In this document: positions 48,919-62,269 of the stretch, one piece after another
Numbering within the stretch: position 1 is the stretch's first letter
Layout of the letters: every line of letters starts with the position of its first letter
From: an uncultured Bdellovibrionales bacterium
Lineage (GTDB): Bacteria > Patescibacteriota > Minisyncoccia > Moranbacterales > UBA2206
DNA: 62,270 nucleotides
Assembly (NCBI GenBank): GCA_964538685.1
Contig: CAZIFD010000004.1
Location: 1-62,270, forward strand
Reading direction: 5' to 3'
Program-made: the position numbers and the translations under genes
Notes under the pieces: model-generated
What the model was told of the DNA's origin: nothing
The model's input: only the letters and a program-made list of their open reading frames with translations
Databases searched by the model: none

Positions 48919-49019
48919 GTCGCATTTACTGAACGAAGCTCGAACCTTTTTTGAGCAACAAATTCTGCCGTGAACGGCAGAAACCCGCCCAGCGTCTCCG
49001 CCCGCCGATACTCGGCGAG
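48919..49019 (+). repeat. attR-like junction plus L segment; diverged inverted copy at 60296-60387
   Basis: Shared ctgaacgaagctcgaac and tccgcccgccga-a/tactcggcgag. Confidence 0.85.
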
Positions 49020-49102
49020 CAAAGCAAAACAATTTTCTTTCAATTTTTTATCGCCCGCCCGCCAAATTTTTCTTAAAAGGAATTGAAAATTGTTTTGCTT
49101 TG
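49020..49102 (+). repeat. 83 bp unit U (18 bp terminal inverted arms), copy 1
   Basis: caaagcaaaacaattttc-47 nt-gaaaattgttttgctttg; copies at 54903-54985 (identical, minus) and 60213-60295 (3 substitutions, minus). Confidence 0.95.
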
Positions 49103-49246
49103 ACGTCTTGATACCAAGACGGCGGAAACGCTTCGCTACGCCAATTTTATTTTTCGGGCGGGGCGGAAAAAAAGGGGGGGTCTGGGGGGAATTCCGCCCC
49201 GCCCTCTCTTTTCCGCTTTCACTTTTTTCGCTGGCGCTGGAGGCCG
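49020..49246 (+). repeat. Left arm of perfect 227 bp inverted repeat bounding cassette 1 (partner 54759-54985)
   Basis: Exact reverse complement, including homopolymer lengths A7, G7, G6. Confidence 0.95.
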
Positions 49247-49270
49247 TGCCAACTTCATTGGCGCGCCACC

Positions 49271-50086
49271 TTATAATTTTTTTATTGTTTCCGATCCGTT
49301 GGTAGAAATTATTACTGGAGCGACGCCTTTTGTTCCAATAACATATGTTGCCACATTTACTATTTCTCCCTTTTTAGCAAATTGAGCCATTGCTCCGGTC
49401 GTCATCACTACTTTCGGAGGCATGGGGACTGCATAAGTATCAGCGACACCACCCTTTGAAGAATTGTAAACCGAAACCGATTGATATTTCTCAACGCTAG
49501 CTTTGGTCATTATATTGCCTGGCAATTCAGCACTTCCCTGCAGACAATCAGGATGTGTTTTGTTAATTTTTAATCCTAAAATCAGTGACGAAATAAAAAG
49601 GCGTTTTATCTCTTTACGATCTCTTGCTAAAGTTTCGGAATCTTTAACATCCCTTATTTTTTTATTTCCGTATTCGATATCCAACCTGCTCTCAATTAAA
49701 TTATCCTTATTCTTGTCAGGGTCAAACCCTAAATCAAAAATCGGAAATTTGTTTTGTTTGTATAATGCAACTTCCTTTTCATTAAGTAACGTTCTTGTTA
49801 TTAAACACGTTAAATCTCCTTTTTCCAAAAATTTGGATAAACTTCCTCTTGCTTCAACCTTTCTATTATCTTCCCCTTCAATTACAAATGTCTTTATCCT
49901 GTTTATCCAATTATTACCGTTAATTTTTGTTACTATTACTTGTTCCCATGGCAAAATATCGCTTTTTCTTAAAATGCCTTTTGGAATTACCAAGCCCTCG
50001 GCAATTTCGTCCTGTTTAAAAGTATTCCTGCAATTGGTGATAACAAGGTTGTGGATAGCGCTTCTTTTGAAAATTATTTCTTTCAT
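49271..50086 (-). CDS. Tandem double PanD-like (pyruvoyl decarboxylase fold) protein
   Basis: Domain 1 RSAIH...DILPWEQV...NRIKTFVI...GD; domain 2 QGSAELP...DTYAV...GAMAQ...GE, with the Gly-Ser cleavage motif only in domain 2. Confidence 0.75.
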   Translation of the reverse strand: MKEIIFKRSAIHNLVITNCRNTFKQDEIAEGLVIPKGILRKSDILPWEQVIVTKINGNNWINRIKTFVIEGEDNRKVEARGSLSKFLEKGDLTCLITRTLLNEKEVALYKQNKFPIFDLGFDPDKNKDNLIESRLDIEYGNKKIRDVKDSETLARDRKEIKRLFISSLILGLKINKTHPDCLQGSAELPGNIMTKASVEKYQSVSVYNSSKGGVADTYAVPMPPKVVMTTGAMAQFAKKGEIVNVATYVIGTKGVAPVIISTNGSETIKKL

Positions 50087-50186
50087 AAAATTCAGCATTA
50101 CCTTATCACATTGCGCAATATAAGTAATTTTTAAAAATTAAATCCTATGCAATTATAATACGTCTTTTTCTATAAAAAATCAATGA

Positions 50187-50676
50187 AAACCACTAGCTTA
50201 TACGCTAGTGGTTTCTATCCTGCCGTCTAACGACGGCTAGAACAACTTGAGGTTTTCCATATCTACCTGTCGGTTGCTTTGGTTTTGAATATACTTACGG
50301 ATGGCAAATTCATTGATGCCAATGGTAGAAACAAAGTAGCCCCGTGCCCAGAGACTGCCTTTGGGGAATTTTTTAGGCGGTATGACAAGATACAAGTGTA
50401 TATGCTCGTCGCCAATGTGCCATTCGAGAATTTTAATCCCCTTCCATTTGGCAATGAACTTGAATATTCTCTTAAGTTCTAGTTTAATGTAAGTATCTGC
50501 CATTACCTTGCCTCGGTATCTGGGAGTCCAAACTACATGATACTGACAACAGTAAGTGCAGTGCTCTAGTTTATAGAGTTTGGTCAACATAAAATCACCT
50601 CCTTGCTAGTGGGTGATTTTATTATATTCCAAGAGCTAACGCTCTAAACGCACACACCGGCTGACGCCGGTGGTTT
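50187..50676 (-). mobile_element. IS200/IS605-family element, transposase-only, internally deleted
   Basis: tnpA ORF flanked by hairpins aaaccactagc-ttatac-gctagtggttt (50187-50214) and accggc-tgac-gccggt (50656-50671); exact ends uncertain. Confidence 0.7.
50237..50590 (-). pseudogene. tnpA: IS200-type Y1 transposase TnpA with in-frame internal deletion
   Basis: YHVVWTPRYR, HUH motif EHIHL, LWARGYFVSTIG, KYIQNQ; segment normally between IPPK and FP is missing. Confidence 0.8.
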
Positions 50677-50691
50677 ATCTGGTTAAAAAAA

Positions 50692-60079: not shown

Positions 60080-60230
60080 ACGGCCTCCAATTCCGCCGAA
60101 AAAAAGAGCAGTCCGAGCGAGGGCGTGGCGGAAGGAGGGGGTTGGGGGGAGGAATTCCGCCACGCCCGAGCCGAAGCGAAGCGTTTCCGCCGTTTGGCGT
60201 TAAGCCAAACATCAAAGCAAAACAATTTTC
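60080..60230 (-). repeat. Right arm of 151 bp inverted repeat of cassette 2
   Basis: Reverse complement of 54968-55118. Confidence 0.95.
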
Positions 60231-60295
60231 AATTCCTTTTAAGAAAAATTTGGCGGGCGGGTGTTAAAAAAATGAAAGAAAATTGTTTTGCTTTG
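60213..60295 (-). repeat. 83 bp unit U, copy 3
   Basis: 3 substitutions relative to 49020-49102; the 18 bp arms are identical. Confidence 0.93.
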
Positions 60296-60383
60296 CTCGC
60301 CGAGTTTCGGCGGGCGGAAACGCGGAGCGGAGCTATTCGAGCATTTTTCGTTCAAAAAAAGTTCGAGCTTCGTTCAGCAATTG

Positions 60384-60541
60384 CGACCAGATTAAACTTT
60401 TTTCAAAATCAGGGGCGATTGGTTGCTCGCTCGCCCCGCCTGCGGCGGGTCTCGCTTCGCAAAAAGCCCTGTATTTCGGAATTAAATCGTAGGGTCGGAC
60501 AAATTCAAATTCGGCTTTTCGGGAAAGCAAACGGCGGTTCG
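60384..60541 (-). repeat. Left arm of perfect 158 bp inverted repeat bracketing LSR-2 (partner 62064-62221); contains inverted attP-like junction
   Basis: cgaccagatt...ggcggttcg is the exact reverse complement of 62064-62221. Confidence 0.97.
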
Positions 60542-60667
60542 GAATTGCGAAGCAATTCACAAATGAAATTTGTATCCAATTTTTTCCGTTTTTGCCGGAG
60601 GCAAAAATACAGAGCAAGTTTTTTAATCCCGCGCTTTTGCGCCGTAGGCGCAATGGCCAAAGGCGAC
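60542..60667 (+). other. Leader of alternating mini-hairpins and segments complementary to the LSR-2 CDS
   Basis: 60575-60588 rc=62049-62062; 60609-60623 rc=62004-62018 (1 G-T); 60624-60637 rc=61114-61127; 60654-60667 rc=61064-61077; hairpins with GAA, GAA, GGA, GTA loops. Confidence 0.9.
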
Positions 60668-60694
60668 AATTATTAACTTAATGGAGCAAACAAT

Positions 60695-62269
60695 ATGAAA
60701 ACAAAATTTTTTCTCTACGCAAGAAAATCTACCGAAGACGAAGAAAGACAAGTTATGTCTATTGAAGCGCAACTGGCGGAGTTGGCGGAATTTGCCAAGC
60801 GGGAAAATATAGAAATTGCCGAAACATTTATTGAAAGTAAAAGCGCAAAGAAACCCGGCCGAGAAATTTTTAATGAAATGATGAGTAAAGTCCACGAAAG
60901 CAAAGAGCCGATTGGTTTGATTGCGTGGCACCCGGATCGCCTTGCCAGAAACAGCATAGATGGCGGACAGATTATTTACAGCATAGACATCGGCAAAATT
61001 GTTTCTTTGCGCTTTCCCACTTTTTGGTTTGAGCCAACTCCGCAAGGTTTGTTTATGCTTCAAGTCGCCTTTGGCCAATCAAAATATTATTCCGACAATT
61101 TGTCGGAAAATGTAAAGCGCGGGATTAGGCAAAAACTCAGGCGTGGCGAATGGCCGACTCTTGCGCCTTTCGGCTATGTGAATAATCCGAAAACGAGAAC
61201 TATTGAACCCGAACCGACAAAATCAAGGTGCGTTGCCAAAGCGTTTGAGGAATTTTCGCAAGGTCGGCACACTTTGGAAAGTTTGGGCCAACGCCTGAGT
61301 TTTTGGGGCGTGGTGAGCGGAACCGGAAAACCGCTTTGCAAGGCAACTTTACAAAGAATGCTCACAAACAAAGTTTATCTCGGCTTGATTGTTCATAACG
61401 GCGAAACTTACGAGGGCGGTTTTCCGGCAATTGTTTCCAGAGCGACTTTTGAAGCCGTCCAAAAAGTATTAAAACAGCGAGCAAGGCCTCGCAAATCCAA
61501 AAAGAGGCACAACTTCCCATTTGTCGGGCTTTTAACTTGTGGCGAGTGCGGTGGGGCGATTACCGCGCAATTTGCCCATGGACACGGCGGAACATATCGC
61601 TATTATCGTTGCACCAAAAAGCTCGGCAAATGTAGCCAGCGATATTTGCGCGAGGACTTGCTCGCCGATCAATTAAAATCACGGCTTCAAAATGTCGCTC
61701 TTGGCGACGACTGGGCGGAAAAGATGAACGCTCAAGTTGATGTTTGGGAAAAAGACAACACTCAGTCGGCGCAATCTTTCGCCCAAAATCTTGAGGAAAA
61801 AATCAAAGAGACGGAAACCAAACTTGATAAGCTGGTCAACGCTTTTTTGGACGGCTCGATTGAAAAAGAAACTTACCTTATCAAAAAAGACGACATCATC
61901 AAAACAAAAACAGACATCAACAAAAGAAAGTCTGATTTTGGGCGAAAGGGAAACAATTGGATTGAACCTTTGCGAAACTGGATAAATACCGCTCACCACG
62001 CCGAAAAACTTGCTTTGTCCAATGATTTTTATGAAATAAAATCATTGGCGGAAAAAATTGGAACGAACCGCCGTTTGCTTTCCCGAAAAGCCGAATTTGA
62101 ATTTGTCCGACCCTACGATTTAATTCCGAAATACAGGGCTTTTTGCGAAGCGAGACCCGCCGCAGGCGGGGCGAGCGAGCAACCAATCGCCCCTGATTTT
62201 GAAAAAAGTTTAATCTGGTCGGGCTGCCCGGAATTGAACCGGGATTACACGAACCCGAATCGTGCGTAA
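60695..62269 (+). CDS. Large serine recombinase LSR-2
   Basis: YARKS, HPDRLARN, CGECG...YYRC; last 15 codons are antisense tRNA-Pro. Confidence 0.95.
   Translation: MKTKFFLYARKSTEDEERQVMSIEAQLAELAEFAKRENIEIAETFIESKSAKKPGREIFNEMMSKVHESKEPIGLIAWHPDRLARNSIDGGQIIYSIDIGKIVSLRFPTFWFEPTPQGLFMLQVAFGQSKYYSDNLSENVKRGIRQKLRRGEWPTLAPFGYVNNPKTRTIEPEPTKSRCVAKAFEEFSQGRHTLESLGQRLSFWGVVSGTGKPLCKATLQRMLTNKVYLGLIVHNGETYEGGFPAIVSRATFEAVQKVLKQRARPRKSKKRHNFPFVGLLTCGECGGAITAQFAHGHGGTYRYYRCTKKLGKCSQRYLREDLLADQLKSRLQNVALGDDWAEKMNAQVDVWEKDNTQSAQSFAQNLEEKIKETETKLDKLVNAFLDGSIEKETYLIKKDDIIKTKTDINKRKSDFGRKGNNWIEPLRNWINTAHHAEKLALSNDFYEIKSLAEKIGTNRRLLSRKAEFEFVRPYDLIPKYRAFCEARPAAGGASEQPIAPDFEKSLIWSGCPELNRDYTNPNRA
62064..62221 (+). 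repeat. Right arm of 158 bp inverted repeat, inside 3' end of LSR-2
   Basis: Reverse complement of 60384-60541; ends 2 nt into the tRNA-Pro acceptor stem. Confidence 0.97.

What the first reader, a model, noticed from the sequence alone, without database searches (positions are those of the whole stretch)
48919..62221. Candidate new system: tRNA-integrated serine-recombinase island built from nested fold-back modules
Seen: the order is attR-L-U-[armA-cargo1-XRE-armA']-U'-[armB-cargo2-XRE-armB']-U'-L'-attP-like'-[R'-leader-LSR-R]-tRNA. Each bracketed module has its own perfect long inverted repeat (227, 151, 158 bp), and L/L' form a diverged outer pair. LSR-1 at the other end of the window shows the same R'/leader/R design with different sequence, so the design recurs independently. 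Established: integron attC and CTX-phi attP are folded-ssDNA substrates, but for tyrosine recombinases; I know of no serine-recombinase equivalent. Inference: a single strand of the island folds into a branched structure with genes in the loops, or the repeats drive inversion or cassette exchange.
Basis: partly seen in the sequence, partly recalled or inferred. Interest (0 to 1): 0.95.

Follow-up and report, generated by a model that had tools for sequence, protein, structure and literature searches.

The report
tRNA-integrating recombinase islands with mirrored attP
The long perfect inverted repeats are real and mark a very large, apparently undescribed family of small mobile islands that a large serine recombinase inserts into tRNA genes, each island keeping a mirror-image spare copy of its own attachment site and of the recombinase gene's 3' end.

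Summary
Perfect inverted repeats (IRs) of 227, 151, 158 and 137 nt lie at the stated places; shuffled sequence gives at most 18 nt. They are not artefacts: the same design occurs in about 130 independent loci, often with imperfect arms.

The region is two fused islands of one family, inserted by a large serine recombinase (LSR) into the 3' end of a tRNA-Pro gene. The crossover core O lies inside the LSR reading frame. Upstream of O is R, the last ~50 codons. Downstream is m', about 15 codons for a conserved C-terminal peptide (LLNxARTxFE), then a hairpin-rich arm.

Every island carries this whole attP region twice, inverted. One copy is split by integration into attL and attR. The other stays intact between a divergent XRE regulator gene and the LSR gene. 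This produces the brackets around the cargo and around the LSR core. Integration replaces the LSR tail with junk read from the tRNA.

The "nested" look comes from two islands joined by a deletion between 18-nt repeats.

Why the mirrored attP is universal remains open. I rate it a new variant of a known kind, of high interest.

The parts
48919..48973 (+). attL (junction J1). Core GTCG (48919-48922), then m', which is both the P'-type half-site and a tail exon. In the LSR frame it reads S-HLLNEARTFFEQQILP-stop (stop at 48971-48973). The host gene starts at 48879 on the minus strand.
   Evidence: Read. Same layout in 26 loci. Codon statistics.
48919..49140 (.). Left outer arm, the outer part of island 1's attP region. 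Pairs at 84% with 60172-60387, which belongs to island 2.
   Evidence: As a single strand, 48919-49274 folds with z = -7.3.
49020..49246 (.). Left arm of island 1 (unit P reversed, plus X). Perfect inverted copy of 54759-54985.
49271..54575 (-). Cargo 1, read from the XRE end:
- XRE 54366-54575
- NUDIX-like 53582-54394
- radical SAM/SPASM 52313-53566
- B12-binding radical SAM 50728-52260
- IS200-like Y1 transposase 50237-50590
- PanD-like 49271-50098

G+C is 46-49%, against about 35% in the host.
54759..54985 (.). Right arm of island 1 (X' plus P, copy 2). It stops at the 18-nt stem 54968-54985, where the fusion deletion occurred.
54968..55118 (.). What is left of island 2's left arm (one P stem plus Y). 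Perfect inverted copy of 60080-60230.
55142..59900 (-). Cargo 2, a type III-like restriction-modification operon:
- XRE/controller 59685-59900
- N6/N4 methylase 57958-59682
- ResIII helicase-nuclease 55142-57961
   Evidence: XRE1 and XRE2 are 62% identical. The same operon type lies next to a related LSR in L083.
60080..60387 (.). Outer part of E', the retained inverted attP region of island 2. In order: Y', P copy 3 (60209-60295), S', and the tail exon m on the minus strand (60333-60386; reads ...WSQLLNEARTFFERKMLE-stop). The core CGAC is at 60384-60387.
60384..60541 (.). R', the inverted copy of the last ~50 codons of LSR-2. Together with m it forms a complete inverted attP (junction J2).
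60542..60694 (+). Leader of LSR-2. It is unique sequence with two small hairpins at its start.
60695..62269 (+). LSR-2, with resolvase, recombinase and zinc-ribbon domains. After the core the frame runs into the reverse complement of the tRNA, giving the tail GCPELNRDYTNPNRA.
62064..62221 (.). R, the right arm. It starts just after the Gly codon of the G-T-N-R motif and ends at the core GTCG (62218-62221). R plus the tRNA forms attR (junction J3).
62218..62270 (-). 3' half of a tRNA, probably tRNA-Pro (CGG), cut by the window end. It is the B'-type half-site.
   Evidence: Read. Relatives L002, L003, L006 and L094 sit at tRNA-Pro.
1..1984 (+). Second unit of the same design:
- m 1-50
- R' 51-187
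- leader 188-371
- LSR-1 372-1973
- R 1777-1913
- tRNA-Lys 1909-1984 (minus strand)

The tail exon on the minus strand reads ...YLYNQARTYFTKDF-stop. Its cargo lies beyond the left end of the window.

Best explanation
Shown by sequence comparison:
- The 13.3-kb region is made of two islands of one very large family. LSR-2 inserted them into the 3' end of a tRNA-Pro gene.
- In this family the crossover core O (the last 4-6 nt of the tRNA) lies inside the LSR reading frame.
- Upstream of O is R, the last ~50 codons.
- Downstream is m', about 15 codons for a conserved C-terminal helix (L/I-x-x-A-R-T-F/Y-F-E). m' also carries a CGAAC motif like the tRNA T-loop, set 5-6 nt further from the core.
- After m' comes aC, a hairpin-rich arm.
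- The whole attP region E = R.O.m'.aC is present twice, in inverted orientation.
- Integration splits copy E into attL (host|O|m'-aC, from 48919) and attR (R|O|tRNA, to 62221).
- Copy E' stays whole between the divergent XRE and LSR genes (60080-60541).
- So the cargo is bracketed by aC/aC', and the LSR core by R'/R.
- Integration swaps the conserved LSR tail for arbitrary residues read from the tRNA.
- The two arms of an island evolve in concert.

Inferred:
- The free form is a double-stranded circle, E-cargo-E'-LSR core. It makes full-length LSR and integrates through the attP at the gene's 3' end.
- Loss of the tail on integration changes or switches off the enzyme.
- The window's two perfect cargo repeats and its diverged outer pair arose when two tandem islands were joined. 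A deletion between the 18-nt stems of unit P removed the first island's LSR.
- E' most likely acts in cis in the XRE-LSR control region, as a bound attP (operator or accessory site) and as a reserve of the 3' exon. This last point is the weakest.
For: - Junction anatomy is the same in 26 of 26 loci that have both repeat pairs: J1 = host|O|m', J2 read on the minus strand = R|O|m', J3 = R|O|tRNA.
- The LSR frame continues through O into m' in nearly all loci and stops 3-10 codons later.
- At 46 sites the m' codons show synonymous turnover: Ala GCG 17, GCT 15, GCA 6; Thr ACT 21, ACC 21; Phe TTC 22, TTT 21; Glu GAG 17, GAA 12. Leu uses CTA, TTA, CTG and CTT. Arg stays CGA in 42 of 44.
- CGAAC lies 18-19 nt from the arm boundary in m' and 13 nt from it in the tRNA. 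The difference is 5-6 nt in 39 of 43 loci. From my own knowledge, this matches the attP versus attB half-site spacing rule described for serine integrases.
- The right arm abuts many different tRNAs.
- The repeat is found in 64 of 73 informative loci.
- Arms within an element are more alike than the closest arm of any other element: 35 of 38 R arms and 8 of 8 cargo arms.
- R starts 3-5 nt after the Gly codon of G[T/S]N in 14 of 24 scorable loci, including LSR-1 and LSR-2, which are only 45% identical.
- XRE is divergent from the LSR and lies across E' in 31 of 37 loci.
- Fusion model: the 227-nt and 151-nt repeats overlap exactly on the 18-nt stem 54968-54985. A junction of the same type, retaining the other P copy, occurs in L034.
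- Arrays of several units occur in L037 and L041.
Against: - No free circle, empty attB or excision junction was observed for this island.
- Contigs in which the LSR carries the m' tail (L082, L083, L084, L034; about 30 of the 120 best protein hits) could be circles, flipped isomers or assembler walks through the repeat. I could not tell these apart.
- No recombination directionality factor is identified.
- The role of E' is not established. A simple operator would not need 250-600 bp of identity.
- R' collects indels in decaying copies (11 of 32 imperfect pairs), so it is not always kept as coding sequence.
- The exact crossover dinucleotide is unknown.
- The structure model of full-length LSR is weak (mean pLDDT 68). 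It shows only that the tail is a helix after a disordered linker.
Confidence: 0.72

Rival explanations
1. The repeats are assembly or whole-genome-amplification fold-back artefacts.
For: - Many contigs end about 50 nt outside the left arm.
- L004 has runs of N exactly in both arms.
- The arms in the window are 100% identical.
Against: - About half of the related loci have imperfect arms, 82-99% identical and some with indels.
- The design appears with MEGAHIT, SPAdes and other assemblers, in a 1.1-Mb contig of a genome whose separately labelled Illumina sibling suggests a long-read assembly (L022), and in an isolate genome (L018, Chitinophagaceae PMP191F).
- The junctions are coding-consistent.
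- Contig breaks are what a real repeat produces.
Confidence: 0.02
2. Folded single-strand substrate. In a single-stranded circle, E pairs with E' to rebuild a duplex attP, with the cargo and the LSR core as loops. The LSR joins this to the tRNA site.
For: - E and E' would form a 300-600 bp perfect duplex that contains the attP.
- The arms are strongly structured as single strands (z = -7.3).
- The family spans many phyla without transfer genes.
- By my own reasoning, integration of such a dumbbell, replication through the two hairpin caps, and one attL x attR event would yield exactly the observed order plus an empty sister chromosome.
Against: - Serine recombinases cut both strands of both partners together, so the first product is a broken chromosome with hairpin caps.
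- LSR protein would have to be present beforehand.
- No Rep or relaxase gene is present.
- The double-stranded route gives the same product in one step.
- There is no direct evidence for this route.
Confidence: 0.06
3. Invertible-segment switch. Recombination between R' and R flips the LSR core so that it reads into the m tail exon at J2, which restores full-length LSR in the integrated state. The cargo may flip likewise.
For: - J2 keeps an intact R-O-m' in frame.
- Because the repeat covers the gene's 3' end, the reading frame stays intact in either orientation.
- The arm length of 90-160 nt suits homologous recombination.
- L083 shows the LSR reading into m' and then the XRE side of the cargo.
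Against: - The LSR points to the tRNA in essentially all loci that show both flanks.
- XRE orientation is fixed in 31 of 37 loci.
- L083 cannot be told from an assembler walk; its three mismatches all lie at the inner end of the arm.
- R' has indels in 11 of 32 imperfect pairs.
Confidence: 0.15
4. Two-attP circle, as in the yeast 2-micron plasmid, or cassette exchange. The two inverted attP copies serve isomerisation or copy amplification of the free circle, or double-site exchange into paired targets.
For: - The inferred circle, two repeats that each carry the recombinase target and separate two unique segments, has the geometry of the 2-micron plasmid (own knowledge).
- In L061 the LSR unit lies between two convergent tRNA-Leu genes.
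Against: - No replication genes are present.
- From my own knowledge, serine integrases normally do not recombine attP with attP.
- Only one orientation is seen in integrated copies.
- L061 is a single case.
Confidence: 0.08
5. E' has no function. It is a repeat that expanded across the attP region in an ancestor, as chloroplast inverted repeats expand into neighbouring genes, and is kept uniform by gene conversion.
For: - The arms evolve in concert.
- The truncated gene copy at the repeat border resembles plastid repeat borders (own knowledge).
- R' decays in some loci.
Against: - E' is present in virtually every informative locus, across LSRs only 45% identical and across many phyla.
- Its inner boundary is conserved.
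- Mismatches are fewest next to the core: 2.5% against about 8% further in.
Confidence: 0.12

Closest known systems
Serine integrases of phages and integrative elements (Bxb1, phiC31, A118, SPbeta SprA)
   Same: - Same domain set.
- Sequence similarity to SPbeta SprA/YokA and to A118 integrase structures.
- Hybrid attL and attR junctions around a short core.
- The same motif sits 5-6 nt further out in the P'-type half-site than in the B'-type half-site.
   Different: - A complete inverted attP with 250-600 bp of flanks is retained inside the integrated element.
- The crossover lies inside the recombinase reading frame, so integration swaps a conserved C-terminal peptide.
- No directionality factor is recognised.
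- The last ~100 residues have no counterpart in solved structures.
Tycheposons and other tRNA-proximal cargo islands (bioRxiv 10.1101/2020.12.28.424599)
   Same: - Small cargo or defence islands beside tRNA genes.
- Each recombinase type goes with its own tRNA.
- Successive integrations build arrays (arrays here).
   Different: - Tycheposons mostly use tyrosine recombinases (910 of 937).
- They are flanked by direct partial-tRNA repeats.
- Many carry replication genes.
- No mirrored attP is described for them.
SSV1-type archaeal integrases (own knowledge)
   Same: The attP lies inside the integrase gene, so integration into a tRNA gene changes the integrase gene product.
   Different: - They are tyrosine recombinases.
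- The gene is split in two rather than losing a 15-residue tail.
- They keep no inverted spare copy.
Yeast 2-micron plasmid FLP/FRT; invertible segments with a serine invertase (Hin, Gin, and Cin of phage P1 with 0.6-kb repeats) (own knowledge)
   Same: - Long identical inverted repeats carry the recombinase target and bracket unique segments.
- In the Hin system the recombinase gene sits inside its own bracketed segment.
   Different: - Here only one orientation is found in nature.
- The enzyme is a large serine integrase with attP and attB type sites.
- There are no replication or partition genes, and no enhancer is known.
Integron attC sites and CTX-phi attP (folded single-strand substrates; own knowledge)
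   Same: Self-complementary DNA around a recombination site; cargo in cassette-like units.
   Different: - Those systems use tyrosine recombinases that exchange one strand pair.
- Their hairpins are short and imperfect.
- Here the arms are kilobases apart and the enzyme makes double-strand breaks.

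Membership tests
Large serine recombinase (serine integrase) | N-terminal resolvase catalytic domain, recombinase domain and zinc-ribbon domain in one protein of about 500 aa. | tested here: met
   - Pfam matches: PF00239 (residues 6-153), PF07508 (174-262), PF13408 (275-330).
- Matches SPbeta YokA/SprA and A118 integrase chains.
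- A YARKS motif lies at the N-terminus.
Serine-integrase integrative element | attL and attR are hybrids of attP and attB halves around a short common core. | tested here: met
   In 26 of 26 loci J1 = host|O|m' and J3 = R|O|tRNA. The core is repeated directly at the two outer ends.
Serine-integrase integrative element | attP-type half-site carries the outer recognition motif about 5 bp further from the centre than the attB-type half-site. | tested here: met
   CGAAC lies at 18-19 nt in m' and 13 nt in the tRNA; the difference is 5-6 nt in 39 of 43 loci. Only the right-hand half-sites could be compared.
Serine-integrase integrative element | Empty attB and excised circle exist; excision needs a directionality factor. 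| not tested
   Exact-protein look-ups of the host neighbour gene and of LSR-2 found nothing on record. No directionality factor is recognisable among the backbone genes.
DNA invertase / shufflon-type invertible segments | Both orientations of the bracketed segment occur in populations. | tested here: not met
   The LSR points to the tRNA in essentially all loci with both flanks. XRE is divergent in 31 of 37 loci. A few ambiguous contigs remain.
Integron / folded single-strand recombination site | Tyrosine recombinase of the IntI or XerCD type acting on a short imperfect hairpin. | tested here: not met
   The only recombinases present are the LSRs and an IS200-like gene in cargo 1. No RNA or hairpin family matched above threshold.
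2-micron-type plasmid | Free circle with two inverted repeats carrying the target site, plus replication and partition functions. | tested here: inconclusive
   - The geometry follows from the junctions.
- L082 fits a circle broken inside E', but an assembler walk is not excluded.
- No replication genes are present.
- The family is absent from plasmid records (28% identity at best) and almost absent from viral contigs.
Insertion sequence with terminal inverted repeats | Element ends are the repeats; it moves as a unit and leaves both ends in the same relation to the target. | tested here: not met
   - The LSR unit is never alone; the m motif always lies outside R'.
- The cores at its two ends are inverted, and the reading frame needs R joined to m'.

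The most novel reading that the evidence does not exclude
The mirrored attP makes this an integrase that controls its own direction without a directionality factor.
- Integration removes a conserved C-terminal helix from the enzyme.
- The intact inverted attP, placed between attL and attR, acts in cis as an accessory site.
- Alternatively, it acts through fold-back of a single strand into a duplex attP.
- Either way, the element could enter, lock and leave tRNA sites in hosts of many phyla with only two backbone genes.

If the fold-back version held, it would be the first serine-recombinase system to use a self-paired single strand.
Probability: 0.12. Interest if true: 0.95.

Novelty: new variant of a known kind. 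Interest (0 to 1): 0.8.

Why it matters
- **Tools.** Serine integrases are major genome-engineering tools, and their direction control is a central open question. Here thousands of natural integrases share a tail that integration itself removes and a built-in second attP. Both are directly testable with plasmid assays.
- **Site prediction.** The family supplies ready pairs of predicted attP and attB sites (tRNA T-arm plus acceptor end) for many tRNAs.
- **Ecology.** It is a widespread carrier of restriction-modification and other defence genes in Patescibacteria and several other phyla.
- **Assembly.** It explains a recurrent cause of contig breaks beside tRNA genes in metagenome assemblies.

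Tried and rejected
- **A separate small protein from the minus-strand ORFs over R' (60333-60653; 6-308).** The parts upstream of R have no ATG and are not alike in the two units. Judged unlikely, but not tested across loci.
- **Known RNA families in the arms.** Only sub-threshold microRNA-like hairpin hits.
- **Promoter and terminator scan around E'.** One strong promoter-like site at 59891-59919 (+), pointing toward E' and the LSR, and one at 59985-59957 (-), pointing toward XRE. No terminator calls. Not conclusive.
- **Looking for the same island elsewhere.** The methylase is found on one other 2.3-kb contig only. The host neighbour gene and LSR-2 are not on record. One look-up failed on a wrong frame.
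- **Using mismatches in L083 to tell a flipped isomer from an assembler walk.** All three mismatches lie at the inner end of the arm, so they are uninformative.
- **Independent circles with palindromic junctions for each module.** Rejected, because the cores at the two ends of a module are inverted and the conserved tail needs R joined to m'.
- **Structure prediction of full-length LSR.** Low confidence; it gives no docking information for the tail.
- **Phage or plasmid origin.** One distant hit in viral contigs and none closer than 28% identity in plasmids.

Full report
**1. Observation**

- 49020-49246 / 54759-54985, 227 nt
- 54968-55118 / 60080-60230, 151 nt
- 60384-60541 / 62064-62221, 158 nt
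- 51-187 / 1777-1913, 137 nt, at the other end of the window

A diverged outer pair joins 48919-49140 to 60172-60387 at 84%. In 20 shuffles of the region the longest inverted repeat is 12-18 nt.

The genes are as described. Cargo 1 has XRE, a NUDIX-like gene, two radical-SAM genes, an IS200-like transposase and a PanD-like gene. Cargo 2 has XRE, an N6/N4 methylase and a ResIII helicase-nuclease, which is a type III-like restriction-modification operon. Both large recombinases have the full serine-integrase domain set. They are 45% identical to each other.

The LSR units and cargo 1 are 45-49% G+C, against about 35% for the rest of the window.

**2. Not an artefact, and not a one-off**

The LSR has thousands of relatives: 6308 proteins at E <= 1e-10 among the candidates scored.

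I fetched 80 loci from species-representative genomes and 80 from metagenome contigs. In 64 of 73 loci that show enough sequence on both sides, an inverted repeat brackets the LSR core. Eight of the other nine have it with slightly different geometry. L004, which seemed to lack it, has runs of N exactly in both arms.

About half of the arm pairs are perfect; the rest are 82-99% identical, some with indels. The design appears in assemblies made with different programs, in megabase contigs, and in an isolate genome (L018). So it is real.

It also breaks assemblies: many contigs end about 50 nt outside the left arm, as this window does.

By record titles the hosts are mostly Patescibacteria. They also include Omnitrophota, Planctomycetia, Bdellovibrionales, Gammaproteobacteria, Bacteroidota and Nitrospirales, several of them on contigs of 70 kb to 1 Mb.

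**3. Anatomy**

The right arm R lies inside the LSR gene and ends 3-6 nt inside the 3' end of a convergent tRNA gene. The tRNA varies: Pro, Gln, Lys, Leu, Ala, Glu, Gly, Ser, Arg, Ile and Asn.

Just outside the left arm R' there is always a conserved 24-nt motif, m.

In 26 loci an upstream cargo segment has its own repeat pair, and its right arm overlaps R' by 4-13 nt. Aligning the three junctions gives one picture in all 26:
- J1 = host flank | core O | m'
- J2, read on the minus strand = R end | O | m'
- J3 = R end | O | tRNA body

So J1 is attL and J3 is attR. J2 is a complete attP that has been kept, inverted, inside the island.

All the long repeats are one thing: an inverted duplicate (E') of the attP region E = R.O.m'.aC. 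Here aC is a hairpin-rich arm of 50-435 nt.

**4. The crossover lies inside the gene**

In the attP configuration the LSR frame runs through O into m' in nearly every locus and stops 3-10 codons later. The encoded peptide is [L/I]-x-[F/E]-A-R-T-[F/Y/H]-F-E.

Across 46 sites the third codon positions turn over freely. Ala uses GCG, GCT and GCA (17, 15, 6). Thr uses ACT and ACC (21, 21). Phe uses TTC and TTT (22, 21). Glu uses GAG and GAA (17, 12). Leu uses four codons. Arg stays CGA in 42 of 44. So m' is constrained both as protein and as DNA.

In the integrated copy the frame instead reads the reverse complement of the tRNA. The resulting tails are arbitrary; that is why homologues end in WSGRxDLNxRP and similar strings.

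In the window:
- LSR-2 ends ...IWS-GCPELNRDYTNPNRA.
- J2 encodes ...IWS-QLLNEARTFFERKMLE-stop.
- J1 encodes S-HLLNEARTFFEQQILP-stop.

A structure model places the tail as a helix after a disordered linker, but its confidence is low.

**5. Half-sites**

The CGAAC of m' matches the T-loop of the tRNA read in reverse. It sits 18-19 nt from the arm boundary in m', against 13 nt in the tRNA, a shift of 5-6 nt in 39 of 43 loci. From my own knowledge, this is the spacing difference between attP-type and attB-type half-sites described for serine integrases. It supports reading m' as the P' half-site and the tRNA T-arm with the acceptor end as the B' half-site.

**6. The arms evolve in concert and have fixed limits**

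The two arms of an element are more alike than either is to the closest arm elsewhere, in 35 of 38 R arms and 8 of 8 cargo arms.

In this window the X and Y arms share only patches of 85-96% identity, yet each is 100% identical to its own partner.

Mismatches between R and R' rise from 2.5% next to the core to about 8% at 100-150 nt from it. Either LSR binding constrains both copies near the core, or gene conversion starts at the core.

R begins 3-5 nt after the Gly codon of a conserved G[T/S]N motif in 14 of 24 scorable loci, including both LSRs of this window. So the repeat is old and inherited, not made anew at random.

**7. Why the window looks nested**

The 227-nt and 151-nt repeats overlap exactly on the 18-nt stem 54968-54985 of an 87-nt unit P. 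P also lies at 49020-49106 (reversed) and 60209-60295.

P read in either direction has the same two stems in the same order. Two islands in tandem would therefore carry direct 18-nt repeats on either side of the segment [outer arm - attP - LSR - attL - outer arm]. A deletion between those repeats leaves X'-P-Y, which is what is seen.

This model explains three things:
- each cargo keeps a perfect pair, its own E and E' remnants;
- the outermost pair is only 84-93% identical, because the left arm comes from island 1 and the right arm from island 2;
- there is a single LSR.

L034, a different genome with an LSR 55% identical, has the same kind of junction but retains the other P copy. L037 and L041 show uncollapsed arrays of alternating cargo and LSR units.

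**8. Backbone and cargo**

The two XRE proteins are 62% identical. An XRE homologue, divergent from the LSR and separated from it by E', is found in 31 of the 37 loci where one is detectable.

Cargo in 26 other islands is mainly controller proteins, DNA methylases, LexA-like proteins and toxin-antitoxin parts.

The family is absent from plasmid records (28% identity at best) and almost absent from viral contigs.

**9. What E' is for remains open**

Flip models predict both orientations, but only one is found.

Contigs in which the LSR carries the m' tail do exist: L082, L083, L084, L034, L091, L122, L161 and about 30 of the best 120 protein hits. Because R is as long as a read, they may be excised circles, flipped isomers or assembler walks through the repeat.

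For the folded single-strand idea I worked through the topology. A serine recombinase acting on a hairpin attP would cap both chromosome arms with hairpins. Replication through the caps, followed by one attL x attR event, would give exactly the observed order. But this route needs pre-made enzyme and a single-stranded circle, and the double-stranded route gives the same product in one step.

I therefore commit to the double-stranded circle with the tail swap. I place E' as a cis-acting bound attP in the XRE-LSR control region that also holds a spare 3' exon, and I mark that part as inference.

**10. Known relatives and novelty**

The enzyme is a member of the large serine recombinases, and the island is an integrase-driven tRNA island. 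In ecology it is close to tycheposons.

I did not find the following features described in four literature searches:
- the universal mirrored attP region;
- the crossover inside the recombinase frame, with a conserved tail exon beyond it;
- the resulting double bracket of perfect repeats.

The searches cover open-access text only, so prior description cannot be excluded.

Noticed in passing
window 1-1984: The window starts about 50 nt outside R' of a second island whose cargo lies beyond the left end. It ends 49 nt beyond R of LSR-2. Both contig ends therefore fall beside repeats of this family, which fits repeat-caused assembly breaks.
   Followed up: partly
window 50237-50590 (-): An IS200-like Y1 transposase (117 aa) sits inside cargo 1, between the radical-SAM genes and the PanD-like gene. 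It is probably a passenger insertion; its ends were not mapped.
   Followed up: no
window 50000-54000: Cargo 1 is 46-49% G+C in a host of about 35%, whereas cargo 2 is 33-37%. The two fused islands probably have different histories.
   Followed up: no
L061 9780-11604: The LSR unit lies between two convergent tRNA-Leu genes (caa on the plus strand, gag on the minus strand). This is what recombination of the internal attP with a second tRNA site, or a double-site exchange, would produce.
   Followed up: no
L088 1734-5337: The inverted partner of the first LSR's R arm lies downstream (1734-1841 / 3586-3693), abutting a second LSR unit (3687-3789 / 5235-5337). This is a variant arrangement that I could not explain.
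   Followed up: no
L041 900-14400: Three or four LSR units alternate with cargo units. Two internal junctions carry the same 15-nt fragment of tRNA-Ser followed by identical sequence; the full tRNA-Ser is at the end.
   Followed up: partly
window 54674-54782 and 59996-60104; 49223-49274 and 55094-55145: Beyond the inner ends of the arms, the two modules share direct homology of 85-88%. It includes small hairpins (GCATTTCGC-TTT-GCGAAATGC on the XRE side, GCCAAnnnnnTTGGC on the far side). The XRE-side stretch is also 84-86% similar to sequence in L083.
   Followed up: partly
L053 1786-5157: A 151-nt inverted repeat pair (90% identical) brackets 3 kb on the far side of the tRNA-Leu from the LSR. 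It may be another module beyond the tRNA.
   Followed up: no
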